Below, in pieces: positions 1 to 36,427 of a DNA stretch of 64,000 nt. The notes under the pieces are model-generated. The model did no database searches. It was not told the DNA's origin and worked only from the letters and a program-made list of their open reading frames with translations. Both the position numbers and the translations under genes were made by a program. Origin of the DNA: Marsupella aquatica (Eukaryota; Plantae; Marchantiophyta); contig OZ316896.1 in assembly GCA_973895155.1 (NCBI GenBank), positions 1,178,001 through 1,242,000 of the forward strand, read 5' to 3'. Position 1 is the first letter of the stretch, and every line of letters starts with the position of its first letter.

Positions 1-2730
1 TTGCCTATGAGCGGATAATTTCATGCGCAAGTTGTGGTATACACTACTTGAAAAGTAAGCAATGGAATTCTCTTGTGAGTTATTGGGCATTCATCAGCAT
101 GGGTTGGATTATACACGGGACACCTTACAAATTTTGCGGTTGCTTGAACTTCAGGTGAATGGCTTCTCAAATTCTGAGGAGGAAGCTTTTGGCAAAACCG
201 CCAGAGTTCCTTTTCTGCTCGAAAGTGAACTTATTAAGCTCGGAGGTTTATACGAGAAGGGCTCAGATTGGGTATGTTTCTAGTGAGTTCCGCAGATTGT
301 TCTTCGCTATGTGTTTGGAAATAATTCTTTTTCCTAAAACTTTCTATGTGTGTTTTTCGTAGAGCCGGCATGTGCCTTCTCTTTGCTCCATTTTACGTCA
401 TACAAATACTAAAAATTTTACCCGTGTGTTATGATTGCAGTCGGCGTATGCCATAGCAGATGGAAATCTGATCACAGGTCAAAACCCTATGAGTTCCGAG
501 AAATTGGCAGGATTGACCCTGAAAGCATTGGGAGTTTAATTTACTTACATTGCACAGGAATGTTGTGAATGTCTGTGTTAGAGTGATACCTGGATGTCTC
601 TGAGTACTGGTCTTGCTCCAGAACGGAGGATTTGCCGGGAAAGTACTCTGTATCAACATAGAAATCACTTCCATATTGATGACTGATGAGCTAGGTATGA
701 ATTTCCTTGATCAGCGAGCTGCCCTCTGGGCGTCTCTGCAACTTAGATAGCTTGAAGCACAGCGTAGTACTCCATACTGATAGGTACAAATCCCATGATT
801 TGTGTATGAATGTTGCAAACCATCGTGACTACTCGTCAGTAATGTCCAATTCGATGAAGTAGTGGAGTCGAACTGGTTCGATCGAGATTTGTGCATCACG
901 ACTCTCAAACCTTCCTAGGATGCAAGCACTGCAAACTCAACAGATTAGTACAGAGAACGCCCAACATAACCTACAGTCACTCCTGAGGAACCTGAGGGTC
1001 AACAGGTTAACTCGACAAGATGCACGAACAATTTGGGTGGAAAACAGTCAAAGAAAGCTCTGCTTCTAGCTCTGTGGAGGGAGCAAACTAGCTCTCTGGA
1101 GGGAGAAAGGACTCCTGAGACACCATGAGCCGTACCCAGTTTAACTGACAATAAAATGCGGTCAGCACATTGTAACTCCAGCAACCACACAAAAAATGGC
1201 TAATATTCTATTGAAATTAGACTACTATTTTGGAACTGAGAACTGGCATGTAACTGGCATGTACTCATATCTTTCGTTTTGATCTCAATGCCCGTGACCA
1301 CGTAAGTTGCACAATTATCATGGTGACTATGTTGTCCACGTTGTCATTGCAACCATGCCCACCACAATGCATGATGTGGTTGTGTAAGTCAATTGTTCTT
1401 TTTTAAATGGGGCTATAGATGTGGCTGGGATTGTGGCTAAGTATGTCCAATTTTTGCGGAAATGTTGATGTTCGTCATCTTTGCAGTCATGTTGAATGTG
1501 CTTGCTGAAGGGTCTTCATATTCGTTGGTTGGTTATTGTGTGTGGAAATAGTGTCATTATATTGGTCAATGCCATTTCAGCACAAGACAGGCAATGATGG
1601 CCACAACATTGCATGGGTCCATGTGTGGTCGCCCGGTGTTATTGGGAGGGAGACTTTTCCCCTGCTTCTCCCTGCTTCTCCCTGCTCAAGGGGCTTGGGG
1701 CACTTGTGCACAGGAGGGCAAGCTAGGGTAAGGCACAAGGCCATAGGTACATATGTTCTGCGTGCAGGCTAGGGGCTTTGCTTGGAGCACCTCAGCCCCC
1801 CACACACAGGGCTTGCACTGTGCCCGTGGGTAGCATGGTGAGAAGGAAAATTGTCAAGCGAGACTACACACTACACAGTGATTCATCCTTGCAGCTCTTC
1901 ATCGGCCATTCTTCACTTGCTTCGTCCTTCAATGTCGTCTAACATTACGTAAAGCGGGACGTAAAGGACCCCTATCTTGCTCGCTCTCACTTGCAATGAA
2001 TCATCTATCGAGCAAGCAGGTTACCAAGCTCAATGAGTGCATCAGTCAGTCATCAGTGACTTTCCTGGCATCCATTTCATCCGCTCCGCTCCAATCTGCT
2101 CCCCTCGCGCTGCTGCTGCTGTTTTTCCTTTCCCTTGACTTTGTGAAGCTTCGACGAGATTTGAGAACCTCACACGCCAGCCATAGCTTCAGCCGAACAC
2201 CAGTCCTCCTAACACGCCAGCAGCCAGGCCCTTTCTTTTGCTCTTTCCCTTTGACTTTTCTTCTTATTAGGAGGTCCTAAACAGCCAGGCCCTTTGTTTT
2301 GCTCTTATTAGGGGGTCCTTATATCTCCTCTGTTATCTTTGCTTCTTCTTATGATGAGGTCCTCAGATATCTGCCCTTCAACCTCAAAACCTCACATATT
2401 GTGCCCTTCAACTTACAAAATCAATATCTCTAACTTGCAATTTCATGTAGTAAATATCACACCGTTTGGAGAAGTTGATTCTTAGTTATTTCTGTGGACT
2501 TCTACATTTTTTCTGTTCCTTAGTAAGCCTTCTTGTTCCATGAATATAATACCAGCATGACACATAGATACACCCCTCTTGGAAGAATCTTAGCTTATAG
2601 TAAGATGTCTCTTTCTATTTGTTTATGTCCATGCCTAACTTGATATTACACATGGAAGTGAACACACATAGGTGAGTTCCACAGTGACAACCTGGAATTC
2701 TTAAATACTTATTGTTCTATATGCAGCAAT

Positions 2731-3110
2731 ATGGACCACAGGCGAGGTGTCCGTGTCAGCATGACTGACCTCAATCATGGGACATACAAACTGAGCTGGC
2801 AGGAGCTCAATGCTCCTTCCCATGCCCCTCTCATCCAACGCACCACTACAATAGCGGAGATTCAGTCAGACTTCCCTGAGTGGTGCAATGTTATCAAATT
2901 TTATCATATTGCACTAAACCATACTGCTCCCTTGGATGACCTCTGGATTTGTGCCGCATACAGTTACTGTGAGAGATTGATGCGTCGGAAGAGGTTCCAA
3001 GTATCTACTCACTTGGCTTTCCTTTGTGGATCAACTAGTAGACATACACTACCCCGACCCGTGAAAGATGTCATCCTTGCTACTTGGCCCATGAGGAAGA
3101 AGAGGAATGA
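2731..3110 (+). pseudogene. KolX/P2X7-ballast-like ORF, copy 1 (C-terminus apparently frameshifted)
   Basis: Aligns by eye over about 120 aa with the ORFs at 3360 and 3870 (TY.L.W...PE.C....H..LN...PL.DL..AAYS.CE....KRFQV.THLA..CG...R..LP..V...I..TW). After TWP the acidic tail (gaggaagaagaggaa) is in another frame. An acceptor tgcag| ends at 2726, just before the ATG. Confidence 0.6.
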
Positions 3111-3359
3111 TAGGCTAGGAACCATACTCCTGGTTTTGTTACTCAAAGTTCCATTCTACTTTTATGAGATCGGTTTTTTCTTTCCTATGTTCAAGAGTTC
3201 ATGGCTAAATCATCAATGAGTATTGCATAATGATGGAGCATGTAAGTCATGCCTTTTGTATTTGACCAAATAGAAACAAGTTTAGGGTTGCAAATTTGGC
3301 TTTATGCCTATTGGCTACGAGATTGGCTAATATGTGTGACTCTAGTTTTCTCTGCAGAT

Positions 3360-3761
3360 ATGGAAGGTAGACATAGCCAAGTCATCACTCTAGAGTCCCT
3401 TCATGGTGACACATATGTTGTGTCTTGGCTCAAACATCCAATGGACACTATTGGACAACGCCAATTCTCCATGGATGAACTTGAAGATTCATACTTTCCT
3501 GAATTTTGCACTGCTGTGCGAGATTGCCATCACCTCCTCAACCCCGTTCTATCTGTTGAGGAGTACTTACGCATGGCCGCTTATAGTTGGTGTGCAACCA
3601 AACCACACCAGAAAAGATCATTAGTACATAGTTATAATTTGGCTCGAGCTTGTCATTTGGACGCAAGAGGAAGGCTCCCAGATACGTTGGATGAGGCTAT
3701 ATGGAACACTTGGCAGTCAGAGGAAGAAGCTTTGTTTGGTTTCACTCCTAGACCCTTATAG
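3360..3761 (+). CDS. KolX/P2X7-ballast-like ORF, copy 2
   Basis: ATG at 3360 follows acceptor ttttctctgcag| (3357). Ends AAYS...R..LP..L.EAI..TW..EEE.LFGF, resembling the R..LP..V...I...(W/Y)P....Y.GF end of KolX/P2X7 ballast domains. The family call is inference. Confidence 0.6.
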   Translation: MEGRHSQVITLESLHGDTYVVSWLKHPMDTIGQRQFSMDELEDSYFPEFCTAVRDCHHLLNPVLSVEEYLRMAAYSWCATKPHQKRSLVHSYNLARACHLDARGRLPDTLDEAIWNTWQSEEEALFGFTPRPL

Positions 3762-3869
3762 GTACACATTATGCACATATAATATTTGGGCTAGCATAAT
3801 AATAATAATAATGCATAATTTGGGCTATACATAATAATAATGGCATTTGTAAATGTTATGTTTTGTAGA

Positions 3870-4262
3870 ATGGCCAATAAGACGCCAAGGAGCACTGCCA
3901 CATTGACGGTGATGGATCCTGACCTTGAGACGTATCGGTTAGTGTGGATGGATGGGTCTACTCAATGTGAGCAGGTTGTGAGCTTGCTAGAGGTTGAGTG
4001 GGATCAACCATTATTGTTCAAAGCAATCGCTGAATGTCACCAGTTGTTGAACCCTGCTGTGCCACTCCACGACCTGCAAATGTGTGCTGCTTATAGCTTC
4101 ACCGAAACTGTCAACAAGAAAAAACGGTTTCAAGTTTACACCCATTTGGCTTGGGTGTGTGGGTTTGCTGAGAGAACACGATTACCTCCAGCTGTGGAGG
4201 AAGCCATCAAGGATGCTTGGCATGATGAGGAGGAAGTGTTTGTGGGCTTCAGTGAAAACTAA
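3870..4262 (+). CDS. KolX/P2X7-ballast-like ORF, copy 3
   Basis: ATG at 3870 follows acceptor ttttgtag| (3868). Ends KKRFQVYTHLAWVCGFAERTRLPPAVEEAIKDAWHDEEEVFVGF. Paralogous to the two upstream ORFs. Confidence 0.62.
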   Translation: MANKTPRSTATLTVMDPDLETYRLVWMDGSTQCEQVVSLLEVEWDQPLLFKAIAECHQLLNPAVPLHDLQMCAAYSFTETVNKKKRFQVYTHLAWVCGFAERTRLPPAVEEAIKDAWHDEEEVFVGFSEN

Positions 4263-5091
4263 ATGTGGCTACACATCCCCCATGGATCCCTAAGGCTGTT
4301 GATTTTATATTGTGGGAATATAAAATAGCATGACCAAAGTATTCAGAGAAGGCAAAGTGGCCTTCAATGTGTTTGAGGCAAGCCTTTACCAATGTTTTGC
4401 TCATGCAAATATAAACATATAAATAAATAAATTCTCCTGTTGGAGAAGAACTCTTACTGGCCGGCAGTACAAGGGGTTCAAGTCCCCTTGAGTTTGATGC
4501 GTTAAGATTAAAATTAGGGGGTTAAAATCATCCTTGAAGGCAAAAACATTATCATGTAAAATGAAAATGGCAGACCATAATGCGGTACACAATATATACA
4601 CAGACAACTTCCAAGTAAAAACTTAGGGGTTCAAGTCCCCTTGAGAGTGGAGACAAAGGTTGAAACTAGTGGGTTAAAATCATCCCCTAAGGTAAAAAAT
4701 TATCAAGAAAACACATTATTAGCCCAATGAACATGTTCTTCCCCCAATGAAAATGGTACACCTAGGTAATCCTAGACACAATACACTGATCATATATACA
4801 GAGACAACTTTCAAGTCTAAAATACCAAAAAAAACACCATAGAAAGTGACCAAATGAGTATTGCACATAGAGTAAGTCAATAGAGTAAAAGTCTCAACAA
4901 TTGACCAAACACTTGGGTGTGACTACCTTTCCTATACCACCGCATGAAAATAAATCCCTGCAACAAAATGGCCATATGCCCCAAATAAGACAAAATATTC
5001 TCCAAACACTTTAGCAAATGAATGGACATATTAAAATGCAATGAAAGTGTAAGTAATACCATAATTCAACTATCAGATACACACCTGACTG

Positions 5092-5403
5092 CTCAGGGGC
5101 CTCAATCCAAGGGGTGTCCCATATCACGCTCAAAATTTTGGGGGAATAAACACCCTAAAAGTTAAGTCAATAAAGTTTTTTTAAAGAATTGTTTTACCCC
5201 TAACTTAATGGAATATTCTGAGAATATTCTCATATTTGATTTTAAAAAACCCTATGATTCTTATAATTCTCAAAATTGGATTAAAATAACCCTAATGTTC
5301 TTCAACAAAAATTTAAAAGTATTTCACTAAACCCAATAAAAAAACCCTTGGCTATACTTATTTGCGCGTGATGGGTCGGAAGAAAAGAAATGAGTACCCC
5401 GGG
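5092..5403. mobile_element. MITE (312 bp), divergent member of the 8-bp-TSD family
   Basis: Perfect 8-bp TSD cctgactg (5084-5091 and 5404-5411). Ends ctcagggg...taccccggg. AT-rich interior resembles 30335-30631 (accctaatgttctt motifs). Confidence 0.85.
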
Positions 5404-5430
5404 CCTGACTGAACATCCCTGGATCATAGT

Positions 5431-8400
5431 TTAGGTGCCTCCATACATGCTTTGACTAATTGCATCTTTCCAGTTAGTGGTCCTCTCCACCAACAGTCTA
5501 CTATGAGCTGGCCTATCTCTCACAACAGTATTCACCAGAATACGAGGAACTATCTTCCATACAGGGCGGCCAATGTTCTCATTCCAATCCATGAATGCAC
5601 ACATCAAACGAGCCTCATGAGATGCTGGAAAGTGAATCATGCGTTTTGTGGCAAACTTTCCCATCACTGAATGAAATGTCTCGAATAAGAAGTTCTCTCT
5701 AGCCATGGTGTACCCTTGCATCTTTCCTGGAGTGATGTACTTTGCCATGAATCCCTTCATGGAAACATGGGTTGCTGAGTCTGCCCCAAACACCAAAATA
5801 TTTTAACAGTGTAACTAAAGATAAACAAACCACAATAGCATTGAAATGTAGATGTCCTCAACTTGAGAACTAACCTCTTGCATAATACAAATCCAACTGG
5901 GGTCCTCCTTCTTCTCCAATATGGTGGCAGGGCCGGTCTGGTAGTGTCAAACACGCTGTGTGTATACCAGCCCAGTGATTTGCACAATTGGCAACCTCAA
6001 ATGCTAGTGATTGAGCATCACCCCCTCTACATAAGAAGACAATCTCCATTAAAATATTTGTACAATTGTGAATAGGACAAAACAATTCAGTGTGAAAGTC
6101 ATATCTTTTTCAATGTAGTAAAACACTTACGATGTTTTGCACCTCCTGCAACAAATATAGAACCAAGTCTTGAACTTCATGGACATGTTGTGCTGACTAA
6201 GCTCTGGATACTTTAGTCCACGGGGAATGATCGGCATCAATGTGTCCTCAATTGGTAGTCCCCTCCAATCTCCCACCTTGTGGATGAGGTCAATTTTCCT
6301 GAACTTAGATAACCCTCTTACCCCTTTTGCCTTCAACCAATCTTGCAACTGCTTGACAGTAGCACTTTGCAGTTGTGACCTACACAATCATCCCAAGCAT
6401 TTAGTGGAAGCTAAAAGTACATACAAAATTGTACACTCAATTCAAATAATAGGATTGAAACTAGGAAGACTTACAAACACTAACCTGGTTGTTGCAGTAT
6501 CAATATCCACTGTCAAGGTAAATGTGCACTTCACCAACTTGTCCAGGAATTTCCTGACAAGATTTTTGGCTTTGTGCCACAAATCTTTTTGATTCATCAA
6601 CCCTAGGTCTCGAAGGATAGCATCCTGGACAGCAGAGTTATCATCATGGATGACCTGAAAATTACAAGTGCCAAGGTAATTAGCACTAAACTATGTATTT
6701 TACTGACAAAGGAAAACAACAACAAAATAAAGGAAAACAATAAAGACATTATGAATTTGATAAAGTAGAACACTAACCTCTTTGATTACAATTCCATTAT
6801 CTCTCAATCTTTCCAATCCTTTTCTGGTCCCTAGTTCCTCCATCAACCATGAATTGGGTTCCTCTTTTTTGGTCGTAGTCACCATTTCTATAACCTTACT
6901 ATCCGCAAGGTTGATAATTGAAACAGTACCATGATAACCACTACGCGAGGAGTCCCATCAAGCATCTAAGTACACGACAAGACCTGGATCTGTCCAAAAC
7001 CCCAACATGCCAGTATCAATAAATAGATAAGTATTTGCAAAGCACAACAAATTAATGAACAGGAAGCTAATTATGCTCAAGAGACAAACAATAACACAAT
7101 GGGAGTTAGTACTTACCAGCTTGAAGGTCACCCCCACACTGGATATCATGTCTCAAATTTTGCCACAACTCTTTTTTGTTTTCCTCCCATTGTTGATTGA
7201 CAGCTTTAATCCAACCAACCCCGGGACGCCCTCGACCTGTCTGAAAGTCATACCAATGCTGCGAGGTAGGGACATGCAAACCTAGGTGTGATGCAACAGA
7301 TGACAGTGATGTATATGTGAGCCCGGCACATAATGTAGAGTGATACAACTTGGTGGTAACCAAAGGTGAACCCCTTCCCGACTCCATCTCTCCAGTAAGA
7401 AAAGTCCAACCATGTCCCTCCAGCCCACAACTAATCCGTATAGACCACAACTGTTGTAACTCCCTCACATGATGTACTGTAGGGGTCAAAGGGCATCCGG
7501 ATATATGACATCTAGGTAGTAGTTGCTCCACAAAAGTATGCACCAAATGGCGCTCTATGAAACCAAATGTGGCAGGCTCACGGGGTCAGAATCTTGTTTT
7601 TGGAACCTCTTCATGAGCCTCACAATGTTCCACCTGACTAGGAGGGATCTGAGAGTCCATCACTACAAGAGGAGGGATTTGAGAATCCATGACCTCAACT
7701 TGAGAAAGTTGGGAGTCCGTCACGTCAACAGGCACCACTTGAGAATCCATTACCGCCGAGGGAAGCGACTCCGAATCCTCAATGCTAGTTGTTTGAGTCT
7801 GGTACATGATCAATATATAACACATAACAGACTAAGTATGCTTGCAAACTTTTCCTGTAAAAAAATATTAAAATATAAAAGTTGTAAGTTAAAATACCAT
7901 AAAGTTACATTACATACCTGGCCCCCTAGAGCAGCCACCACATCTGGATCATCATTTCCAAAGATGATGTCGTCTCACCAAAAGATCCCTGGATAATGTC
8001 CTCAGGCCATTCATCGTAAGCCTCAAATACTCTCCCACTCTGGTGCATTCCCTATGGATTAGATACAAGAGTTGGTGGTCAAGGAAAAACAAAAATTCAT
8101 CAAATGGACAAACAATAACATTGAAGACTCGGGACAATTTAGAGAATATAGATAAAAAAAACTACCAACTTAAAATGCTGATGTATGGTGAAAGAAAGGA
8201 CAGAGGAAAAAGCAAACTTGGGAAAGAAATGTGAGTGAGAATGAAAAAAATAAAGGAGGCATTAGATCTGAGACTGGTCAAACTCCATGGGTCCCCTCTC
8301 CTGTCGTGAGTGCTGTTCCTCGTCCAAAGACTCCTGGTAATGTTTGACTTGAAAAAGTTAGTACATTAAATTGTGAAAACTGAAATTGCAACATTAGATA

Positions 8401-8855
8401 AACCCAGCAAGTTGTACAATGAAATAGAATAGGAAAGAACCTCTTACATGGAGGGAGTTGTTGGCCGGGACTGAATTGAGATCGAACATGTGTTCTTCAG
8501 GTGCACCAAGGGGTTCTTCGTTCTCCACCCCAAGTGGCAATGCCTCACTTGCAAGTGTTGCTGCCTGGACCACTTGCCGTCTCTTCAACTCGTGTATCGC
8601 AGCACTGCACTTGTCAAGTAACCAATGAATGACTTTAGCATGGGTGGTATTCAAGTCATCTCCCAATAAAATTCTAAGTTCCTCCCACTCATCCCATCGC
8701 TCCACTGGGACCCGGATTGGTGGCTTGGCATCCAGTCTCATCCTCTTCCTATACTCCATGTCATCACTCGGGTACTTTGGTCTTGGAGGACCACCACCCC
8801 GAGGAGGACGTTTACACCGGCTAGCAGGGAGTTCAGGAGGCTCCATCCCTGACAC
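5431..8855 (-). pseudogene. Multi-exon Kolobok-type DDE transposase with an in-frame stop
   Basis: Exons read in order: IRVPVERWDEWEELR...HAKVIHWLLD; a C-C-C-H region (CHISGC...CGLEGHGW); YLDA*WDSSRSGYHGTVS...SWLMEELG; VIHDD...KDLWHKAK (after intron 6655-6777); an HeH/SAP-like segment (TVKQLQDWLKAKGVRGLSKFRKIDLI); ETFHS..GKFATKR..F....EARLMCAFMDWNEN. This matches the D-D-E layout of Kolobok-like transposases. TGA at 6958-6960 sits in the first catalytic motif. Confidence 0.72.
7600..7790. repeat. Degenerate 30-bp coding tandem repeat inside the transposase gene
   Basis: The minus strand encodes repeated 10-aa units (VMDSQVVPVD/VTDSQLSQVE/VMDSQIPPLV/VMDSQIPPSQ). Confidence 0.7.
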
Positions 8856-9887
8856 TATGACCGTAATATAACTAAGACTATCTAGCTAAAAATAAATAAA
8901 ATCTCAAACTAGAGGTAGATACAATGAAGGAAAACTAATACTACATAAACTTGATGTAAATAAAATCTCACACTAACTGTAGATACAACATAGGATAACT
9001 AACAGTTCCTAACTATAAATAAAATAAAATCTAGAGGTAGACCAAATGCCAAGCCCCACCGGTTGCATCATGGAAAGAGTAACTACCTAAATCTGAGTGA
9101 AAATGAGTAACAATGGGAAGGTAACATTGGGGAAAATAGAACTGAGTGTCCACAATAATGGTAGCCAGGCTTTTATCCTCACCCCACCCAAGGGCCCCTC
9201 AAACCCCATGATCATCCTATGCCATTGGATCTACATCTGAGGGGTGTAATTTATTTATTTGATCCACTACAAACAATAAGTGTTTATTCACGTACCTACT
9301 TGATACGAGTAATATAAGATTTCAAAATTTTACTCCATTTTTCACTCCATTTTTCATTCCATGATGTAAGGTAGCACATAATACTCTTTCAATTGGTGTG
9401 TTAGAATCTTACCTAAGGACAAGCGCTACAGATGGCTCCATTTTTCACTCCATATTCCATAATGTTACGTAGCACATGATCGATAATGGGACAAGCGCTA
9501 CAGCTGGCTGTACAATTTAGGCCAATATATATAATCATTCACACTATACCCAATGCCTACGTATGTTGGGGGATGTGCACTTTCCTTTGTACTCTCAATG
9601 TGCTGCCCGAAACTGCCCAAAGCTGCCCGAAATATTTCAAAATTCAAAAAAACCCTGACAACCAATGAGATTACAATGTTTGTTTATTGGTATTTTCATA
9701 CTCAATATGGATCATTAGCTCCTGCGGTTTTTTCCTAGACGTAGATCTCATCGAGATCTACAATTTGAGCCCTAGATAGGATCGAACGGCCAAGGATTGA
9801 TGCATCTGTGATTAGAAATCCAAGGGTCAGAAGAGGTGCAGTATAATCCCCCAATACTTGAGCTACAGTTGTGAGGAATAAATGAGC

Positions 9888-9915
9888 ACTCCGCGTAACG
9901 CGGAGTTACTTCTAC
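9888..9915 (+). other. GC-rich hairpin resembling a Helitron 3' terminus
   Basis: Perfect stem actccgcg-taa-cgcggagt (9888-9906), followed after a few nt by ...ttctac|t (CTAC instead of canonical CTRR). No 5' end identified. Confidence 0.4.
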
Positions 9916-9967
9916 TTGGATGCGTGGTTTAAGGGAATCAACTGAAGGCAGAGAGGATCATGCTAAA

Positions 9968-10264
9968 CTCGGGGGTTTCACTTCCCCCAAAATGACATAT
10001 CATGTGCTACGAAGTATATGGTCATTTTATTGGTTCGAAGTGAAGACTTAAGAATTTTCTGAGAAGAACAATAGGGTCTCTTAAATCCAATTTTGAGACT
10101 TATAAGAACATTAGGGTCCTTATAACCAAATTTTTGGAATAATCCAAGAATATTCCAACTTTATAGGGGTTGAAAAATAATTTTTTTTTCTTACATTTTA
10201 GGGGGTCTAAGGCCTAAAAACGTCGCAGGTGATGGGGAGGCATCCATATAGTGAGACCCCTGAG
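9968..10264 (+). mobile_element. MITE (297 bp), 8-bp TSD family
   Basis: 15-bp TIRs ctcgggggtttcact / agtgagacccctgag. TSD atgctaaa (9960-9967) / atgctgaa (10265-10272). Homologous to 11366-11624 and, inverted, to 30335-30631. Confidence 0.9.
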
Positions 10265-10362: not shown

Positions 10363-11365
10363 GTCAGACCGTTGAGAGCCAGAGAGTAAGAGCCGTGGAT
10401 TAAGATCCACCAGAAGTGTCAGACAAAGATGATGAGCGGCAGTGGAGGTAGAGTATCCTAAGTGGGTTTTGTCCCAAGCGACTAATGGCTAACAGTAATT
10501 AGGTAACTGGACTAATACTAAATGACTAACCGTGAGCAAATTAATTACAGTGTGGCGACGGCTCTACTAAATGGTTTAGGCAGTTGGCATGATGGTGGGA
10601 GGATCCTGAGACAGCGCAAGTCTCAGACTTCCAACACATGCATGAAGAGGTGATATTGGCTTGATTTGATAGTGACCAAAAGATATGTTTTCAACAAATT
10701 AATGACCAAGATTTGCTCCTACCTTTTTTGCTTTTGTAAACAAACTATCCGTCACAATGAGTGGGATGACATATTGTAGTGTTTGATTGGTACCATCCTA
10801 CTTGGATCTTTTCACCAATTAGCCCTTGTTGTGTATTGTGTGGCTAGGCAGTCAAGTCTTGGACTTCCCTGACTCCCTTATTTCAGTCCATCACTGGTCT
10901 ATAGTTGGCTTGTTGGCCGTGTTTGTATCTCTAAGTCTTGTTATAAAATAATGGATTCCTCCTTGTAAGCCTCCTTTCTCAAATTATGTGGCTATCGTTC
11001 TTGCCTGGGCTTAGTTTTGCGTTGCTTCAGTCCCCCTCGATCCCTCAATCCCCCCCATAAAAAAGGGAAGGGTTTCCCAAGTGCCCCCAAACACACTATC
11101 CCATCCCCATAATGACAGATGGCAGTGACATACCTTGGATGCCACATACCATGCCCTTTATAGTGTCATATAGCCTAGTAAGTAATCCCCTGCATGCAAT
11201 ATGTGGTCCTTTGTGCATAAGGACCAACTTTGAAGGAGATCCCTGATTCAGAAAAACATGAGATAAATCAGGCTGCTCACAGATTTTCCCACTCAAAGTT
11301 CTTTTTTTTGTAAATAGACCCCTCCCCTTTTTTGGGGTGATTGGTTATTAGGGTTCTCAAATATC

Positions 11366-11624
11366 CTCAGGAGTTTCACTTCCACAAAAATGACACATCA
11401 CATGCAACGAAGGATGTGGTTGTTTCATTAACTTATTAAGACTTACTTAATAAGTTTTTGAAGAAAAACATTAGGGTCTATTAAATCCAATTTTTATACT
11501 TATAAGAACATTAGGGTATTTTTAATCAAAATTTGGGGATGACTTTTTTCTTACATTTTAGGGGGTCCGAGGCTTAAAAACATTGGAGGTGATGGGGAGG
11601 CCTTCATATAGTGAGACCCCCGGG
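11366..11624 (+). mobile_element. MITE (259 bp, internally deleted), same family as 9968-10264
   Basis: Ends ctcaggagtttcact...agtgagacccccggg. TSD caaatatc / taaacatc (2 transitions). Clear internal homology. Confidence 0.85.
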
Positions 11625-14480: not shown

Positions 14481-17322
14481 GGCCGTGTGATATATACTCT
14501 TAGCTTTCACATTTGGAAACTTCGTGTGCAGGAGTGCATTACAAAGCACTGACTTTTTCTACAGCTTGCACATAATGTACCCGTTCCACCACTAAGTCAT
14601 GCACATAATGTACCCGTTCCACCTCACTAAGTCACGCGCAAAGTTGGTTGTAACTATAAATAAATCCATTCGATGAATTTAAGGGGGTTGCGTGCTGTCT
14701 ATGCTTCTCGAGCTAGTGCTTTATCAATCACTTCAATGGTCCCACTTATACATGAGCCACCCTCCAGATCGCAACGCCGCAGACGGCACTCTTCCTTGGC
14801 GACTCAAATATTCTTCATTCTATAGGCGAATCCATTGACGAGTGTCAAATTAAAGACTTGATTGTTTTCTGTGTTCAACTGTAGAACTTGAAATGATGAA
14901 ACAGCTCGAATTAAAGGGTCCCCTTCACTCAGATTTGTGGGTTGGTAGGCCGGACAGAATTCTCTTTTAGCTTTTCCCCCCCATTTTCCTTTCAACTCAC
15001 CTGTAATTGAAGGGACTAACAAGGTCATGTTGGGAGAGATCGGAGAGGAGTTAGACGACCCAAGACCCATGCTAAAAGGTACTCTTGTAATCTCTACGGC
15101 AAAATTAGAAGGCGGCCACAGCCAAAAATTAGTTTCCGGCTACCAACTTTCGTCTCGAATGCGAGAACCCTGTGCCAGATCAAAACCCGCGAGTTGAACA
15201 GGAGGGCCACAATTTGGCCTCAAGTGAATGCGCCGGCAATGAATCTATAAAATAATGCAAACAGTCTTGAAAGAGGGATTTGCACTTGCAGGTGTCAGTA
15301 GAGGAAATGGATTGAGATGATCTCTAGTACATTAGTTAGATGAAGTATCGATCTAACTGAAGCCCAGGTGCTTTGAAAAGCAAGCTCTGGTTGTCTTGCA
15401 AAATACAACGATGGCAGTAATTAAGTGTGTCCCTTGTTTCAAGGGACAACTTTGGCTGCAAATCGAGTTGAGGATTGAGATGATTCAAACTTGACTGTCT
15501 TCAAAGGAAAACTTCTGGAAAAGTCCGAAGGAACGTCGTGGCAGGCAGAATGGAAAGACAACGCATCGATCAGACTCCAGAGGACAAGGTGTCTCCTGGG
15601 AAGTCGGTCGGGTTTAGCAAAATCGCAACAGGTGGACAGAAATCGGATGTCTTTCTTGTCTTCGTCGACAGGTCCGGATAGGTTGATGGATGCTCGATCC
15701 GTCAGTGTCAATTTTGGGGGACGTGGATAAGTCTGGAAAGGTCGCTGCCACAGCACCGACCGAAATCTTTTGGAAGGACATGATCTGGTACTCGATTTAT
15801 ACTAGTTTTTTTTTGCACTTGTTGATTTTGTCTGGACAGTCAGCTAGCTCGATGGCCAGCTGACCACAAACCCACCACCAAGCCGAGACGTCAAGGCGCG
15901 TGCGAGAGGATTCTTTCGATGCCTCGAAAGGATAGACACGGAACTCCGAGGAAGGGGTAGCCTCCAAAGGCAGCTACTGCAGTATATACTGATCGAAACT
16001 CCGTCCGTAGCAAAGCATTACACCTAGTCACCCTAGCTGTCTGCACTCGGTGGCGTGCTCGCCTCAAAACATGAGGATTATAGCGGAACATACAATGTCG
16101 CTGTACTTGTCGTACCTGGAGTCTGATGTGTAGAGCACCAGGATCACAGGAGCAATTCAGGACTGAAGCACAAAAATTATCCTACTTTCATGATGACTTG
16201 GCGCTGCTGGAGTCCTGGAGGCTTGTCCCATGCGCTTATCCGAACTTCAGCAATGGATAACGAGCGAAGACCTTGTATAGTTTCGGCGGTTGGACACGTA
16301 ATCTCTGCAATTTGATATATCATCCGATGCGCAGGAGGCGGCAGATCTAGAATAAGCTTGGCTTACACGGGATGGTCGTGTACTTGATGAATTAAAACAA
16401 GACCAGTCCAAGGCCATGCTGACCTGTGGCCCAAGTTTTCGGATAAGGCCGTGATTGGAAATTCCAAAGAAATATAATTGTCGTCGCCTGGTGGTCACTA
16501 CCGTGCCGGGCCTCCTCGGGACTTCTAGCTTTGCTTGTCCGGCCCGTTGCTCGCAGCGAAACGTTTGGTTTTGCCTCTTCCTGACAGAAAGAGTCTCATT
16601 GATCTTCTAACTTGGAGTCTTCTGCCAGGTGAGCGTACAAAGCGCGTACAGCTCCACAAAACCGTCCGCTTTCTCATTTTGTATTCTATCCATCTGTTAC
16701 CACCTCAGCAGACGTTAGGGACTGGGTGTGCTTGCTCAGATACATATATTTGCAGGGCAACCCACTTAGTTTGAGGCGTACACAGTATTAATTTTGCACA
16801 AGGGCTTGAAACGGGAGAGAGTGGTAATCAAGGAGTGCTGAGCGCAGAGAAGTTGAGGATAAGAGAGGAGTGAAAGATCGGAAGCTAAAACTTCTCCCCG
16901 TGGAAGTTTCTAGAGATCCCTGTCAGACTACAAATTACGTGACGGTTCCAGGGGAGAATTCACTTGACGATTGGATTCTAATTCCAATACTTAGTCGGCG
17001 GAGTACGTGAGTGCGGTTGGCAATTGCACTACAGAAAACGAAAAATTCTGTAGAATCACGTGAAGGTGGAGAGGGGACCCGGAGTACACATCATTCAAAG
17101 TTACAAGGAGGGATTTGCAGTGGTCTTGACTTGAGCACGAGAGGAAAGCATTGCCAATCATACTCGTCGTTAGAAGTAAAACTTTGAGTGTCTTTAGCTC
17201 ACTGGCAGTTCCATTACCTCCTCCCATCAACTGCCAAGTGTTTCGAAGCCCACTGACGGTTCGGAGGCGTCTTCATTGCACGCCTTAATTGCAAACAGTG
17301 TAGTAAATTTTGCTAATTTTCA

Positions 17323-18131
17323 ATGGCACAGTACGTGACGAGCGGTGCCTGTGGACAGATGATGAAATGTGGAAGTCCTTCGCGTTCTCCTGGACGCTCT
17401 ATAGGTTCTCCGGCACGTTCTTTTGGATCTCCGGTGTCCTCGTGTGGTTCTCCGCGACGCTCATTTGGTTCTCCCGGACACTCTTTTGGTTCGCCTGGAC
17501 GCTCGTTTGGAAATTGTGCTGACATCTTCCGGACAGACAGTACATACCGCTCGGGCAAAATCCATAGCGGTAAACGCGCAACCAGAGTGAGAGCGGCAGC
17601 TCTGATGACAGATCACTTTGCAACACTTGGCATCCGCCACAATGCTTCAAAGACGGAGATCAAGAGTGCGTATAAGAAATTAGCTAAGCAGTTCCACCCC
17701 GATGTTTGCCGAGGAGATCAGTGCCAAAGCAAATTCATTCAGATCAAGAACGCGTATGAGGTAACTCACTTTTCTATACAGTACCTAGCCTTCCTAGCTA
17801 GAGTCTACTTTCTTTTCGTTTCTGTGGCGTTCATTGTTTTTTGAATATTCTAACTGCTGTAAGTGAGATTCAAGGAAACGTAGTCAAATTAAAGAACGTT
17901 TGCTTAAAGTATGATTCTTTAGGCAAATTCTAATATCATGTTCTAACCTCTTTGTCTGCTTGATTACAGAGTGCTCTCAACTGCGTTACTGGATCACATT
18001 ACTCATCAGGCAACTGCGATGCTGAGAACTATGCCGAGGATTGTAGAGAAGAATTGGAAGACTGGGAAGAATTCATGGGTTTTGAAGGCGCTGCGAGTAT
18101 ATACTACTCAGTCGACTTCCCTTGCTCATAG
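17323..18131 (+). CDS. ATJ8: Chloroplast DnaJ (J-domain) protein, DnaJ8-like; exons 17323-17760 and 17970-18131
   Basis: S/R/G-rich transit-peptide-like N-terminus. J-domain with HPD (DHFATLGI...EIKSAYKKLAKQFHPDVC...KFIQIKNAYE). Phase-0 GT..AG intron at 17761-17969. Exon 2 gives ...EDWEEFMGFEGAASIYYS..., like the WEEWMGWEGA C-terminal motif of plant J8 proteins. The symbol names the likely Arabidopsis homolog. Confidence 0.85.
17384..17512 (+). repeat. 21-bp coding minisatellite (SPGRSFG-like heptads) in DnaJ exon 1
   Basis: About 6 units of ggttctccNggacgctcNttt, translating as SPGRSIG SPARSFG SPVSSCG SPRRSFG SPGHSFG SPGRSFG. Confidence 0.85.
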
Positions 18132-20220: not shown

Positions 20221-20940
20221 TTACCCAGTTCTGGGACCTTTGCTCTCAGGGGCTGCCCTTCTCGAGAGAGGATAGCTTGGGTGAACATAGCTAGGCTCCC
20301 TATCTGTATGAGTTCCGTAAGGATATCGTACATCATGGTACTCTGACACGCGAGTGCAATTAAACTCTCCAACATATGTATGTGCGTCCTTCTCCTTCCC
20401 AACGGGGAAAGTACGCACATAATTGGGGAACTTGGGCACATACGATCTTCGAGCAAAGCGTTTTTGCAAAGCCCAGCCGGTGGCAGAGTTGTAAGACGTA
20501 CCCAACGTATATGACGTTGGGTCATGCACATCTCGCTCATATACCCTTATATTGGGATACACCTCTGGATTAGGCCTGCTTTCGAACTCTTTGACCAGAG
20601 GCAGTGAATCGGAATCCCCAAAGATGAGGTTATAGGATGGCTCCCATGATGCCTGCCTCACCTCATAATCCTTCCACTTCACGAGGTAATATGTGACTGT
20701 CAGTCTAGGGTCTTGTGGATCCTTTACAAATTGTTTGCTCAGGATTTGTTCCACTTCTATGAGCCTGGGCTCCACATGATCTGGTGGAGGCGGAGGTGTG
20801 AGGCAGTCCACACATTCCCAAGAATGATGGAGGTGAGGATCTGGGACATCTGGTACGATTAGGTGCTGTGTTCTCTCCCTGTGTGCCTTGGCAGTGTCGG
20901 ACTCCCCGTAACACTTCTCCCTCTCTACCCTTGATAGCAT
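20221..20940 (-). CDS. Intronless chromodomain-containing protein (239 aa) with unknown C-terminal domain
   Basis: PPPP...EVEQILSK...YYLVKWKDYEVRQASWEPSYNL is a chromodomain signature. The ORF is uninterrupted. Expression is unknown. Confidence 0.65.
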   Translation of the reverse strand: MLSRVEREKCYGESDTAKAHRERTQHLIVPDVPDPHLHHSWECVDCLTPPPPPDHVEPRLIEVEQILSKQFVKDPQDPRLTVTYYLVKWKDYEVRQASWEPSYNLIFGDSDSLPLVKEFESRPNPEVYPNIRVYERDVHDPTSYTLGTSYNSATGWALQKRFARRSYVPKFPNYVRTFPVGKEKDAHTYVGEFNCTRVSEYHDVRYPYGTHTDREPSYVHPSYPLSRRAAPESKGPRTG

Positions 20941-23900
20941 TTTCGGTCGCTCTTTGATTCCGTCGCCCTATATTTATGTCACGCAAAAATTCTGATTACA
21001 TCCAAGTTCTGATGCACCTAAGAAGAATCTAAAGTTGCGGTGATTGTTCTTGAAAAGTTGAAATGATTTGCTCTGGTTAAAGTGAAACCAAATTGTTCAA
21101 AAGCTTATTTTCCTACTACAAACGGTATGACACCACTATCGTAGATGATTTTAGCGTGAACCCTCGACATTTCTTTGAATCGCAAAATTAATCAATTTGA
21201 TCGATCGGTGCCATCTCAGATTTATATTGGACAGTAGTTGTTGCAATCTTCGACGTGGTTTAAGAGGAAAGTAATTCGATTCAGAAAATCAATACAGAAT
21301 CAATTCTGGATCGAAAATCAATAGACAATCAAATAGTCAAACAATGACATGAAATCGTAGCAAAAAAATACCACCCGCGTTAAATCGAGGATATATGCTA
21401 TGTAGCCTTTCCAGAATTCGCAAAATCCACTGCTGCTTTCGTACAGAAATCTTTTCAGAGTTTATGGCTCTACCTTGACCAGTCTTGACAGTATTCTCTT
21501 TCCTTCACAGTTCTCTCTTTAATTCTCTATCAAGAGAGTTGGGTGACGATCACCTTGGAACGTCTTCCTTGCAGTAGCTAGCTGTCAGATATTCTCATCA
21601 TATTAATGTTACCATCATCCTGAATGTACGTGGTTCGACTTTCTGTACATCATACAGTTGTCCCCGTACGAAGGAATCTTACCCCACATTTTGTAAAGTT
21701 GAGAAGGATCTTAGGTTTAAATTGATTATGGAAGAACCTCTTGGTATAATGTGTTCTTAACGTGTCTCTCCGTTGATTCGTGTCTTTTCGTCCACCACCA
21801 ATCCAGTTGTTAGGCCTCTTAAAGAGAGTCGTCTCAAAGAATTTCTCTCTAAAGGGACTCGAGAGTATCCAGGACCAAATTGTCACCGATATGTAGTCTG
21901 CTTGGTTCAAAAATTATGATTGGTTTATTGCTGGGCTGTCTCTAGCCTTTAAAGTCTTCTGTTTCCGATGGATCATCAAACATCTCTAGGTTGTGATCAC
22001 AGAGGAGAACAGGTGGACGCAGGTGGAAACGCGCATTCGCAAAGGGTCAAGGGCCTTCAATTGACGAACAAAAAGGGGCTTTAGCGCATACATGATGCAT
22101 CCAGCGAAGCCGGATACCTTGGCCTGAGAAGGCAAAAGGGTGAATGTCAACCTCGCTGCCAATGCCAGTGGCCGCCTTGCGAAGTCCTCACGATAACTCG
22201 TGAGTGCATTCTGTTCTTTCTGCAATCACCCTTGCGGCTCTGCCAAAGCCACTGAGTTTCCCGGACAAGTGTGCTTGTAGGTGTGTTTGATTGAGGATAG
22301 CCGGGAGACAGGGGAACTGGGGCGTCGGAGAGCACTTCGGGTATTAATCTTTCTGTTGGTACGGTGCTGGAGGCTGTTGTCAAACTCTGTGGAGCGTGGG
22401 AGAACAGCTGCAGTGAGAGGGTCTGGAGCAGTAGAGATCCATTATTCTCTTTGCTGCGAGAAGGCTAAAGCAGGACTTCCCTGATAAACAGCCATTTAAA
22501 TGCAACGATTTTTAGTAAACCCTCACCAGAAATCCAATTTTGGAATGCGCCTTGCTGTACTTGCGATGGCGTCCATCTTGTTGACCAACCTTTCTTAGCG
22601 ACGAGACTGTTCTACTATGGGGGTTTGACACACAGATCTGAGAAGCCTACATATTGAACAATCGACTTGATGGATGACAGAATTCAGCTAATTTTGCTCA
22701 AGACCTCGTATGTCAGACACCCTGCCAAACCTGTTCACCAAATCTCTACAATCGGTGCTCAATTGACTCTTTTCAGCGCTACGCAAATCAATATTGACTT
22801 TAATGCCATCATCCGAAGGCTCAGGCGATCGTGTTAAACAAGGCTGACGAAGCATTTTGCGTCGTCCCCTGTCAATTCTATATTCGTCCCCTGTCAATTC
22901 TTCTGGCAGTGCATTTGAACTGATGAAACAAACGTAGGGTTTTCGAATTCCTGACAGGTCATGCTTCCAATCGATCTTGTTTTCTTACGATTCACTGAAG
23001 CAGTGGTTCCAAAGAAGTGCGATCAAGGTCAAAGATAGTCGCCTTACTAAACCTTACCCGATTTCCTGCAAATCAAACGATGCTGGAAAGTTCAGCCCCG
23101 GCCAGCAGCTGTCGAACTTCGTAGCCGAGTCTCCCTAATTACGACAGAAATTTCGTTACAGCGTGATACAGAATTATCGCGGAGTTATTAACAGGAGAAG
23201 ATTACTTTCACATTGTAGTCCCCAATACGCTTGAATTCATCATGTCAGTTGTTCTGCGATCCCTCTCACGCCAGCGGAAAATGGTTACGAGAACATAACA
23301 CATTCGGCATTGGTGCACGATATCCGGTGTTGCCCGACAACTACAGCTCTATTGCTGTCACGAAGTGGGTCCAGCTATACTGGTACACTGTCTAGTCCAA
23401 TTGTAGCCCCGCACAAAAGCCCACCTTTCCCTACTTTCCGCACCATTATTGCAGCTTCAATTATAGAGTCGATTCTGCAGGTTTATGACAGCATCTGCCA
23501 AAAAGGAAAAATGCATAAAGTATGTAGTCTTATGCAAGCGCGCCGACATCAGCCAATGATCTACTGCGCAGGCAGAACGCCCGTAACAGTCCCATTCCCT
23601 TCTGGGTGCCCCGCAGTGTGCTGTTTCAAAGAATGAATTTTATTGAAATCTGTTCAGGCATAAAGACAGTCCCATCACACTGCTCGTTTGGGAGACGATA
23701 GGCTACCCTCTTGTAAAACCAGCAGACACGTACCCCTGACCTGGACCTTCTAGCAATTGGTTGGAAAACATCCACATATCTCATTGGCCTCGATCGATCG
23801 TGCGTCGCTCGATGTCAGCATTCACCCCTAAACTATTCACCTGACACTCAAAGAGCCGACTACTGGAACACACGCGAGCCCCGAACCTGCAGTGGTATGA

Positions 23901-29017: not shown

Positions 29018-30334
29018 ATCTCCCCCTTTATTTTGGTCTAGGGGAGGGTAAAGACTGCTACCAATATGATTGCTTAGCGGAAAGTTCTGGAAAGAAAAAC
29101 CAAACCGGTTTTACCATCTTTATATATGAGAGTAGACCAGAACTAAGTCGTAGCCTATACAAGGAATGAGCAAGAGCATATCTTAGTATCTACATAAATG
29201 TTAAATAATTAACCCTACTTGTGAGGCAATTGCAATACCTGCAACGCATCACGGTGTCTAGAAAAACTCTCCAAACGAATCACTTTGGTAAAAGCGTCAG
29301 CCGGGTTGAGTTTATCGTCAATCTTAACTAGCTCAAACATATTATCAAACATAGTCTACCTGATAAAATGGTACCTGAGATCAATGTGCTTCACTCTACT
29401 GTCCATCACCTAGTTCATAGCAAGGTGGAGCGCACTCTGACTATCACAATGGAGCTTCACATTCCCCTATGGCAATCTCATCTCAGTGATCATTCTATCC
29501 AACCAAATCGCTTCCTTTGCTGCTTCCGTTGATGCAACATACTCCGCTTCTGTAGTAGACTGAGCAATATACTTCTGCAAAGTAGACCTCCAACTTATGC
29601 ATCCACCGCCAAGTGTGAACACATAACCTATTGTTGACCTCCTCCAATCCAGATCCTGTGCATAGTCAGCATCTACATAGGCCATCAATGATCTAGCATT
29701 ATGAGCATGTGTATCGAATAATAGACCATGATCCACGGTACCCTTCAAGTACCAAATAATCCACTTCACTGCTTCCTAGTGTACCTTCCCTGGATTCGAC
29801 ATGTACTTGCTCACCTTGCCCATAGCCATGGCAAGATCAAGTCTAGTGCAAGTCCTCAAATACATGAGACTCCCCACTGTCTTGTCATAAGGAACCTTTG
29901 ACATCATTCCCTTCTCTGTCTCATCTGTAGGACAGAAAGTTGATGACAACTTGAAGTGTGGAGCCAACGGGGTACTCACTGGCTTACTATCCCCCATGTT
30001 GAACCTTGCAATTATTTTCCTCACATAACTGCGTTGTGTCAACCTAGCTTAAGACCAGCCTCCAAGTCCCTAGTGATCTCCATACCCAAAATCCTCTTAG
30101 TTGGCCCTAAGTACTTCATCTTAAAATCTATATTTAACAGTGTCCCCGACAGTGTCTTGAGCTTAACAATCTCAGACCTATCCTTGGCCGCAAGAAGCAT
30201 GTCATCCACATAAAGTACTAAAACAATGAATCCAAAGACAACATCCTTCACTTGTTTAAGATACTGACACACAAGGGTCAAACACACTCCTGTGAAAGCC
30301 TTGTGCACGAACCCAATCATCAAACCGCTTATTC

Positions 30335-30631
30335 CTCGGGGGTCTCATTATATGGGGACCTCCCCATCACCTGCGACGTTTTTAGGCCTCAGACCCCCTA
30401 AAATGTAAGAAATTTTTTATATTTTTTAACCCCTATGAAGTTGGAATATTCTTGGAATATTCTAAAAATTGGATTAAAAAGACCCTAATGTTCTTATAAG
30501 TCTCAAAATTGAATTTAAAAGACCCTATTGTTCTTCTACAAAAATTCTTAAGTCTTCCCTTAGAACCAATAAAATGACCCTATCCTTCGTCGCACGTGAT
30601 ATGCCATTTTTGTGGAAGTGAAACCCCCGAG
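30335..30631 (-). mobile_element. MITE (297 bp) inserted in Copia RT
   Basis: Perfect 8-bp TSD gcttattc (30327-30334 and 30632-30639). Ends ctcggggg...cccccgag. Removing it restores ...PRQWNKRFD. Reverse-complement homolog of 9968-10264. Confidence 0.92.
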
Positions 30632-35483: not shown

Positions 35484-36427
35484 GTCATGCTGGGAAAGGA
35501 AAAACACAAATTGCAAGAGGCACCTGCACTTTTTTTTATACCTTCAGGCCCAGCTATACTAGCACTATGGGGCCTGTGGAAATGCTCTTACCCTCCATCA
35601 CCAACACCAAAAAAAACATTCCCTGCATCCGACTTCTGGTCCTCTTTGTCAAACACGCCCGCCACTATTAAAAAAACATTCCCTGCATCGAAAATCTTCT
35701 GTTGTTTTTGTCATACACGTGAATCTGACTCCATATAGAACTATTTTTTCCCGCCTGAAAAACTACGGTATGGTGCCGATAAGTCACCTTCCTCATGATT
35801 ATCTCTGGGCCATTGTGGAGCGGAAGCCGGCCAGTAAGCGTGTGAGATTTGGCTGTTTTCAGCTTCCACAGTACGCGTACTCACATTTGTTTAGTCAACA
35901 CTCAAACGAACGATCCTCGTTGAGCAAGTCTCAGGTACAGTACTGTAGTGCTCTACATTCTACTACTGTAGAGAGTTCTAGAATTCCCTTGCCCCTTGGA
36001 ATTACTTCGAGGCTGTGCTTCCTTCTCATCAGCATTCCAACGCTCTTTCTTCCGGAATCCGCGGACCTTTATTCAGCTCGAACCCCTTCGTGCTCTCTAC
36101 TCTCTCTCACAATCTCCCATCTCTCACAATCTGTCCTCTCTTGCTCCTGCCTCTTGCTTCCCTGGGCGGTGACTCTAGCCCCCTCTCTCTCTCTCGGTTT
36201 CCGCAACCTGCTTCTAAATTGTTCTCGAATCAGAAGTCCTACTATAGTTTACCTGACGGTACCCACTGTCTCCCCATGTCTCACTTGAGTGGTTCCCGCA
36301 ACAAGCTTCTGAATCGCTCTTTAATCACGCTGTTCCATTAGGCATCGTAGTTAGCTTGTTGGTAAGAGCAGTTTCTGCATTCCTCGGGTTGACGGTTTGG
36401 TTTGCCACGAATTAGAGAGGTTCCGAG

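What the first reader, a model, noticed from the sequence alone, without database searches (positions are those of the whole stretch)
2700..8900. Kolobok-like transposon in a land-plant-type genome, with spliced transposase and convergent KolX-like genes
The minus-strand exons reproduce the Kolobok transposase motif series (D.R.DS.G..GT; S..ME..G; HD; DLWH..K; E.FHS...A.KR..F...AR....D.NEN). The convergent small ORFs resemble KolX, the partner protein related to the P2X7 cytoplasmic ballast. Kolobok is best known from animals and other non-plant eukaryotes, so an intron-rich, adapted plant lineage would be notable. An HeH/SAP-like insert lies between the second D and the E.
Basis: partly seen in the sequence, partly recalled or inferred. 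Interest (0 to 1): 0.75.

Follow-up and report, generated by a model that had tools for sequence, protein, structure and literature searches.

The report
Liverwort transposon with TCP-like DNA-binding domain
This is a broken copy of a likely Kolobok-type jumping gene in what is probably a liverwort, and its transposase begins with a domain that resembles the DNA-binding domain of plant TCP transcription factors, which suggests that this major family of plant regulators may have come from such an element.

Summary
The minus strand (8846-5431) holds a predicted nine-exon DDE transposase with DLWH, a SAP insert and a zinc finger before the last E; exons 4-9 are 44% identical over 524 aa to a Riccia protein. 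Three convergent paralogous ORFs (2731-4262) resemble the Cys-less end of KolX/P2X7 ballast only weakly (Z 3.5-3.7, rmsd 3.1, 69 residues). This copy is dead (two stops, frameshifts, a lost splice donor, a nested MITE); related copies exist. Relatives occur in Calypogeia, Riccia, Closterium, Chara and Klebsormidium; the nearest outside clusters have Kolobok architectures, not MULE. No TIR or TTAA duplication was found, so membership is likely, not proven. TCP genes are reported absent from Klebsormidium, so a transposon origin of TCP is a testable possibility. The scan noted Kolobok elements on other DNA (89 notes), none matching this sequence or a plant or TCP query.

The parts
8448..8846 (-). 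Transposase exon 1; residues 21-92 (8786-8571) form the TCP/RHH-like N-terminal domain
8268..8333 (-). Predicted exon 2; donor reads AT here, G at 8267 in other contigs
7918..8051 (-). Predicted exon 3, acidic linker, one frameshift
7117..7798 (-). Exon 4: 30-bp repeats, premature TGA at 7588-7586, Cys/His module, region matched by PF20700 in relatives
6778..6989 (-). Exon 5: first catalytic D (6966-6964), premature TGA at 6960-6958, S..ME motif
6485..6654 (-). Exon 6: second catalytic D (6645-6643) and DLWH (D/CxxH) motif
6131..6379 (-). Exon 7: SAP/HeH insert (about 6357-6274) and following helix
5875..6026 (-). Exon 8: H-W-x3-H-x2-C-x7-C zinc-finger motif between DxxH and E
5431..5780 (-). 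Exon 9: catalytic E (5682-5680), C-terminal region, stop
2731..3110 (+). Accessory ORF A (KolX-like); one base missing after 3090 relative to other contigs
3360..3761 (+). Accessory ORF B (KolX-like), 133 aa, open
3870..4262 (+). Accessory ORF C (KolX-like), 130 aa, open; predicted 3-strand sheet plus 5 helices
5092..5403 (.). Nested high-copy MITE of another family with an 8-bp target duplication (5084-5091, 5404-5411), absent from other copies
   Evidence: (joint 5083 to 5404)
1880..1916 (.). Approximate left limit of sequence shared with other copies; no TIR identified
   Evidence: (depth step, loose end at 1916)
8847..9960 (.). Upstream region of the transposase, shared with other contigs to at least about 9800; right end not delimited

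Best explanation
This is a decayed copy of a likely Kolobok (Kol0-like) cut-and-paste DNA transposon of an undescribed streptophyte lineage, in a probable liverwort, whose predicted spliced transposase carries an N-terminal domain likely homologous to the TCP DNA-binding domain, an RNase H DDE core and a SAP insert, faced by three tandem likely KolX-derived genes. Inferred mechanism for intact family members: the two gene sets are transcribed inward from the ends; the N-terminal domain would dimerise through a short antiparallel strand pair and bind sites near the element ends, in place of the THAP domain seen in animal clusters; the SAP domain would add non-specific grip on target or flanking DNA; the DDE core would cut and rejoin; the accessory proteins would act as transposition cofactors. 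Shown: sequence anatomy, homologies, lesions, presence of diverged copies. Inferred: splicing, DNA binding, accessory function, mobility. This copy cannot make full-length transposase.
For: Kol0-type motif series against Data S5 of PMC9587614 (compared by eye). Zinc finger between DxxH and E, which that paper says MuDR, P and hAT lack. Atlas neighbours of the Klebsormidium relative are PF20700 clusters with THAP, DEDDh exonuclease, YqaJ/lambda exonuclease, or from Parabasalia, the described Kolobok architectures; best TM 0.55/0.73 over 393 residues. Model of a Riccia relative matches P element (E=3e-5), Hermes and ISCth4. N-terminal profile of 14 sequences: TCP15 E=2.1e-4 and 2.6e-4, PCF6 E=0.01, next hit 0.22, among 177,635 PDB sequences; Riccia-only profile of 8: TCP15 E=1.3e-3; Klebsormidium alone ranks TCP15 first of 2 hits (E=1.3); the Pyramimonas-cluster protein ranks it 2nd and 3rd of 6 (E=0.36). 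Homodimer model score 0.38, best of 3 controls 0.00, contacts agree at least 71%, pLDDT at least 61; mark reached by 21 of 30 pairs and 0 of 23 single chains in microbes, 17 of 29 and 0 of 30 in eukaryotes, but only 1 of 7 without an older solved relative, so it may be from memory of TCP/RHH structures. Diverged contigs lie beside exact ones over both gene sets and bridge ORF C to the transposase end. 14 of 25 listed differences in the accessory ORFs are synonymous.
Against: No TIR, RR..YY end or TTAA duplication found. No tree with curated Kolobok sequences could be built. TCP scores are below Pfam's cut-off (12.7-16.3 bits against 23); the window's own domain does not hit TCP in the PDB; a poorly aligned profile of 5 non-Riccia sequences gave no TCP hit; for the Pyramimonas-cluster stretch VAPB_antitox scores E=0.003, better than the best TCP value among members, 0.017. 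The N-terminal profile was cut after the weak hit was seen. P2X7 ranks 22nd of 48,161 chains, below unrelated helical proteins. Riccia shows many transposases but 1 accessory-ORF hit.
Confidence: 0.78

Rival explanations
1. Same transposon, but the N-terminal domain is a generic ribbon-helix-helix domain acquired independently (for example from a bacterial or organellar source); the TCP match reflects a shared fold only.
For: Weak Pfam hits to RHH_1 (0.053), VAPB_antitox (0.003), ParD_like (0.17); TCP helices resemble bacterial RHH (PMC9841405); all TCP scores under the curated cut-off; domain is only about 45 aligned residues.
Against: TCP chains are the top three hits and the top two, and no listed hit to E=10 is named as a bacterial RHH protein; the match includes the IR-x-P saddle and the W/F-L-L/F-x2-AE-P-A end of helix 2; the Klebsormidium alignment extends into the basic region.
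Confidence: 0.3
2. The transposon captured a host TCP domain (direction host to transposon).
For: Similarity is strongest in liverwort sequences, whose hosts have TCP genes; plant transposons often capture gene pieces (established knowledge, recalled).
Against: The domain is in the Klebsormidium nitens transposase, a genome in which no TCP was found (PMC6679135; TCP gain placed at Phragmoplastophyta in PMC12866927), and in a cluster with a Pyramimonas member; capture would need later horizontal spread or TCP loss.
Confidence: 0.12
3. The transposase belongs to MULE or another DxxH superfamily and the three small ORFs are an unrelated liverwort gene family that happens to lie next to it.
For: PF20700 is named 'Mutator-like'; ISCth4 is among the fold hits; no TTAA found; no profile hit of the ORFs to P2X7.
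Against: No MULE-domain (PF10551) hit in 27, 19 and 9 proteins scanned (the sets overlap); zinc finger absent from MuDR is present; PF20700 clusters carry Kolobok accessory domains; ORFs co-occur with the transposase in other contigs and align to P2X7 506-594.
Confidence: 0.08
4. The locus is a domesticated host gene cluster under selection.
For: Intron-rich; ORFs B and C are open; synonymous bias among accessory-ORF variants.
Against: Two stops, frameshifts and a lost donor; 8 of 11 listed transposase differences are non-synonymous or nonsense in this copy; several diverged copies.
Confidence: 0.04

Closest known systems
Kolobok superfamily, Kol0/Kolobok0 lineage (type Kolobok-1_XT; PMC9587614)
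   Same: D-x-R-x-DS, S-x2-ME, D-x-WH-x2-K, His/Cys finger, E-x-FHS; no CCHC finger after the first D; a small second protein-coding unit
   Different: SAP insert between DxxH and the finger (no SAP mention found in that paper's supplements); TCP-like N-terminal domain; three tandem accessory ORFs lacking the seven-Cys cluster; streptophyte hosts; ends and TTAA not shown
Kolobok_1_KlNi and Kolobok_1_MicRcc299 (green-lineage Koloboks in Data S5 of PMC9587614)
   Same: Kolobok already recorded in Micromonas and, judging by the label, in Klebsormidium nitens
   Different: Those cores are of the DG-x-W type with a CCHC finger after the first D and no SAP insert: another lineage
KolX / P2X7 cytoplasmic ballast; Cys-poor KolX-like proteins of piggyBac-2_GrCh and piggyBac-14_PI
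   Same: C-terminal pattern R-x2-[IL]P-x5-I-x3-W-x-[DE]..GF by eye; model 51-130 on P2X7 506-594, Z 3.5-3.7, rmsd 3.1, 69 aligned
   Different: N-terminal half is a predicted three-stranded sheet, four scattered Cys; no profile-level hit
TCP transcription-factor domain (PF03634; AtTCP15 7vp3/7vp6, OsPCF6 5zkt)
   Same: Saddle strand plus two helices, predicted symmetric dimer with strand-strand contact at I24-R25-V26
   Different: Below Pfam cut-off; DRH loop only loosely echoed (D/N-Y-H in Riccia, absent in the window); fused to a transposase
P element, hAT (Hermes), IS256/MULE (ISCth4) transposases
   Same: RNase H DDE core with helical insertion and C/DxxH
   Different: Lack the finger between DxxH and E (PMC9587614); 10-14% identity

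Membership tests
Kolobok superfamily | DDD/E triad with C/DxxH signature | tested here: met
   D 6966, D 6645, DLWH 6585, E 5682; conserved in relatives
Kolobok superfamily | Zinc finger between C/DxxH and the last E (absent from MuDR, P, hAT) | tested here: met
   H455, H460, C463, C471 of the joined core; H, W and C invariant in 11 of 11 rows; definition
Kolobok superfamily | Closest transposases are Koloboks | tested here: met
   Atlas neighbours carry THAP, DEDDh or YqaJ domains or are parabasalian; identification as Kolobok is inferred from the architectures in PMC9587614
Kolobok superfamily | Short TIRs with 5'-RR..YY-3' ends | tested here: inconclusive
   No inverted match above shuffles; ends not delimited and no genome held
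Kolobok superfamily | TTAA target-site duplication | tested here: inconclusive
   No TTAA in 1750-2300; copy is decayed and its ends unknown
Kolobok superfamily | Phylogenetic placement among Repbase Kolobok cores | not testable with these tools
   Reference cores could be read but are not stored sequences
Kol0 lineage | Second gene encoding KolX (ballast fold) | tested here: inconclusive
   Z 3.7, rmsd 3.1, 69 aligned, rank 22 of 48,161; Z 3.5, rank 2 of 998; Foldseek E=1.1
Kol0 lineage | Seven conserved Cys binding two zinc ions in KolX | tested here: not met
   Four Cys per ORF, one aligned in all of 4 rows; so not filed as Kol0 proper
Kol0 lineage | No CCHC finger after the first D | tested here: met
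MULE/Mutator | MULE transposase domain (PF10551; accession recalled) | tested here: not met
   0 of 27, 0 of 19, 0 of 9 proteins
TCP transcription factors | PF03634 above gathering score | tested here: not met
   12.7 and 16.3 bits against 23; a likely homologue, not a member
TCP transcription factors | Homodimer through paired saddle strands and two helices | tested here: inconclusive
   Predicted only: 0.38 against best control 0.00, possibly from memory
TCP transcription factors | Binding to GTGGGNCCCAC / GTGGTCCCCAC via DRH loops | not testable with these tools
   Definition in PMC9841405

The most novel reading that the evidence does not exclude
The TCP transcription-factor family (TB1, CYC, PCF) was domesticated from the N-terminal end-binding domain of this green-plant Kolobok lineage, which predates TCP genes (present in Klebsormidium and a Pyramimonas-linked cluster) and is still multi-copy in liverworts, just as the sister Kol0 lineage gave animals the P2X7 ballast.
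Probability: 0.4. Interest if true: 0.88.

Novelty: new variant of a known kind. Interest (0 to 1): 0.72.

Why it matters
It extends Kolobok transposons to land plants with a distinct architecture; a screen of 1007 plant genomes that included Kolobok profiles reported recently active elements from seven other superfamilies only (PMC12973397, passages), and public databases label these proteins 'SAP domain-containing'. More important, the origin of the TCP domain is open in the papers I read: they date it to Phragmoplastophyta or land plants and note only a bacterial RHH likeness. A transposase carrying a recognisable TCP-like domain in lineages without TCP gives a concrete donor and makes the question testable by trees, structures and DNA-binding assays.

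Tried and rejected
No genome held. No RNA holder listed, so splicing and expression are untested. TIR/TSD searches: an ATACTTATTGTT-type pair at 2705/9283 with TTAA on one side only is at the level expected by chance from my rough estimate for 3.4 million comparisons and lies 26 bp from ORF A's start, right of the shared left limit; rejected. First exon-5 acceptor (6965) replaced by 6989, which restores the strand before the first D. P0031 dropped as a repeat artefact, 1 of 67 hits. Accessory ORFs: no Pfam family in more than 1 of 19 members, PDB profile hits only formate dehydrogenase fragments, Atlas blank, Foldseek no E<=0.001, NCBIfam 0 of 9. Metagenome scan 0 of 286 and viral scan 0 of 13 pattern matches confirmed. 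Non-Riccia N-terminal profile misaligned and without TCP hit. The tree is the quick one, the careful search did not finish; deep nodes are weak and no direction of transfer is drawn from it. Run X5 (share 0.07) was laid but not used. Fused or longer forms of the accessory ORFs were not searched.
Full report
Observation. The minus strand from 8846 to 5431 can be read as nine exons separated by eight AT-rich introns of 94-216 bp, with 8 of 8 AG acceptors and 7 of 8 GT donors. Exons 4-9 joined align without a break to Riccia sorocarpa P0094 at 44% over 524 aa, E=2e-139. Three plus-strand ORFs (2731, 3360, 3870) are paralogues at 32-35% identity. The exon model is a prediction; no RNA data bear on it.

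State of this copy. It has TGA codons at 7588 and 6960, a frameshift in exon 3, an AT donor at 8267 and a one-base loss in ORF A after 3090. Contigs of public runs show CGA at 6960, G at the donor and the extra base at 3090, so these three lesions are not shared by all copies. Of 11 listed transposase differences 8 change or stop the protein, whereas 14 of 25 listed accessory-ORF differences are silent (these are the tool's best-supported rows out of about 1,200 and 480, not a full count). A 312-bp high-copy MITE with an 8-bp duplication sits at 5092-5403 and is skipped in other contigs. Exact and diverged contigs lie side by side over both gene sets, and some bridge ORF C's end to 4944-5067 and 5083 to 5404, which links the accessory array to the transposase end in other copies. 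Shared sequence starts near 1880-1916 and runs to at least about 9800. No TIR or TTAA was found.

Relatives and host. The last exon found 67 proteins (one dropped as a repeat). Of 30 looked up, 15 had an organism: Riccia sorocarpa 5, Chara braunii 4, Closterium 3, Calypogeia fissa 1, a cluster with Pyramimonas and Prorocentrum members 1, Porites lobata 1 (the weakest hit). A profile search gave 49 hits among 7,990 candidates: R. sorocarpa 22, R. fluitans 11, C. fissa 4, Chara 2, Klebsormidium nitens 1, unnamed 9. None was named from Marchantia, mosses, hornworts or vascular plants, a limited negative. The accessory ORFs have 16 relatives among 857 candidates: C. fissa 2, R. sorocarpa 1, unnamed 13. 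In a quick tree of 45 rows the window groups with two C. fissa and three unnamed proteins (SH-aLRT 99), and Chara and Closterium rows form their own groups. The host is therefore probably a liverwort (inference).

Which superfamily. The core matches, by eye, the Kol0-type rows of Data S5 in PMC9587614. That paper defines a zinc finger between C/DxxH and E that MuDR, P and hAT lack; it is here. No MULE domain was hit. With SAP clusters excluded, the Atlas neighbours of the Klebsormidium relative are PF20700 clusters joined to THAP, DEDDh exonuclease or YqaJ domains, or parabasalian; these are the KolobokD, KolobokE and Trichomonas architectures of the paper, so I infer that PF20700, though named 'Mutator-like', marks Kolobok. 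A model of Riccia P0007 (pLDDT 77.8) matches P element, Hermes and ISCth4, the C/DxxH group. SAP is found in 15 of 19 aligned members. Kolobok membership is likely; the end and target-site tests remain open.

Accessory ORFs. ORF C's model (pLDDT 84.7) has a three-stranded sheet and five helices. Residues 51-130 align to P2X7 506-594: rat Z 3.7, rmsd 3.1, 69 aligned, rank 22 of 48,161; human Z 3.5, rank 2 of 998. This is the predicted region but a weak score, with unrelated helical proteins above it; profile searches found nothing. The seven Cys are missing, as in the piggyBac-borne KolX-like proteins of the same paper. I put KolX homology at about 0.7. Each ORF has an AG acceptor-like site 1-4 bases before its ATG, and A and B are followed by GT donor-like sites, which suggests alternative acceptors or a multi-ORF transcript (untested).

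The N-terminal domain. Exon 1 gave Pfam TCP at E=0.2 and a full-length profile gave TCP15 at E=0.2. About 65 residues are conserved from Klebsormidium to liverworts (Riccia against other members, hhalign probability 95). A profile of 14 such stretches finds TCP15 (E=2.1e-4, 2.6e-4) and PCF6 (0.01) as the first 3 of 15 PDB hits; 8 Riccia stretches alone give TCP15 at 1.3e-3; Klebsormidium alone ranks TCP15 first at E=1.3 and the Pyramimonas-cluster protein second at 0.36. Against: the window stretch alone has no TCP hit in the PDB, a badly aligned 5-row profile has none, only 2 of 14 members hit Pfam TCP and weak RHH-family hits are as good. The window domain is predicted to dimerise with I24-R25-V26 pairing across the axis: 0.38 against best control 0.00, contacts agreeing at least 71%, pLDDT at least 61; mark reached by 21 of 30 pairs and 0 of 23 single chains (microbes), 17 of 29 and 0 of 30 (eukaryotes), 1 of 7 without an older relative, so possibly from memory. 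TCP uses such a strand pair (PMC9841405). TCP was not found in K. nitens (PMC6679135); its gain is placed at Phragmoplastophyta (PMC12866927) or land plants (PMC5737466). Homology to TCP I put at about 0.65-0.7, transposon-to-host direction at about 0.4 overall.

What is in print. Searches: Kolobok with KolX, liverwort, land plants, Marchantia, plant genomes, bryophyte, PF20700, and three on TCP origin. None listed a description of this lineage or a TCP-transposase link. Seen: PMC9587614 (abstract, first two of six text parts, passages, section 10, parts and passages of supplement 3; Figure S6 is a picture and gave nothing); passages only of PMC12973397, PMC6337768 (an automated spinach annotation that lists Kolobok), PMC8616336, bioRxiv 2021.09.26.461848 (supplements closed; its host tables may list plant Koloboks), PMC9841405, PMC6679135, PMC5737466, PMC12866927, PMC9480096. 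Four other land-plant papers with one Kolobok mention were seen as listings only. Repbase and subscription journals were not searchable and may hold plant entries. That THAP is the usual animal N-terminal domain rests and recall; convergent orientation of KolX in Kol0 is recalled and echoed by an unchecked scan note.

Verdict. A decayed member of an apparently undescribed streptophyte Kolobok-type lineage: new variant of a known kind. The plant range alone is of moderate interest; the TCP link raises it to 0.72.

Noticed in passing
window 5092-5403, 9968-10264, about 11365-11623, 30335-30631: Four copies of a very high-copy MITE family with CYCRGGGG ends and 8-bp target duplications; its autonomous partner is unknown.
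   Followed up: partly
window 51937-58657 (minus strand): Run of long intron-free ORFs: NIF/FCP1-like phosphatase (E=9e-17), a 775-aa ORF with a weak N6/N4 DNA methylase hit (E=0.005), two unassigned ORFs and arrays of a GCCTCGCCC palindromic repeat; may be a large cargo-bearing mobile element.
   Followed up: partly
window 60083-63807 (+): Long ORFs with DUF7869 (E=3e-22), likely a DNA transposase of another kind, divergent from the ORF run above.
   Followed up: partly
window 48095-51497 (+) and 29270-29899: Ty1/copia-type gag-integrase-RT remnant, with an inverted partial relative at about 29.3-29.9 kb.
   Followed up: no
window 20221-20967 (-), 17317-17844 (+), 36416-37192 (+): Chromodomain ORF, DnaJ-domain ORF and HMA-domain ORF.
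   Followed up: no
window 2727-3869: Acceptor-like AG just before each accessory ATG and donor-like GT after ORFs A and B: possible alternative-acceptor or multi-ORF transcript.
   Followed up: partly
Pfam PF20700: Named 'Mutator-like transposase' but its Atlas clusters carry Kolobok accessory domains; probably a mislabelled Kolobok profile.
   Followed up: partly
P0100 (Chara braunii): Annotated as a fusion of this transposase with a Harbinger-type DDE_Tnp_4 domain; may be a gene-model artefact of nested elements.
   Followed up: no
window 9720-9912: Two short palindromes upstream of the transposase (about 9742-9760 and 9887-9905); role unknown.
   Followed up: no
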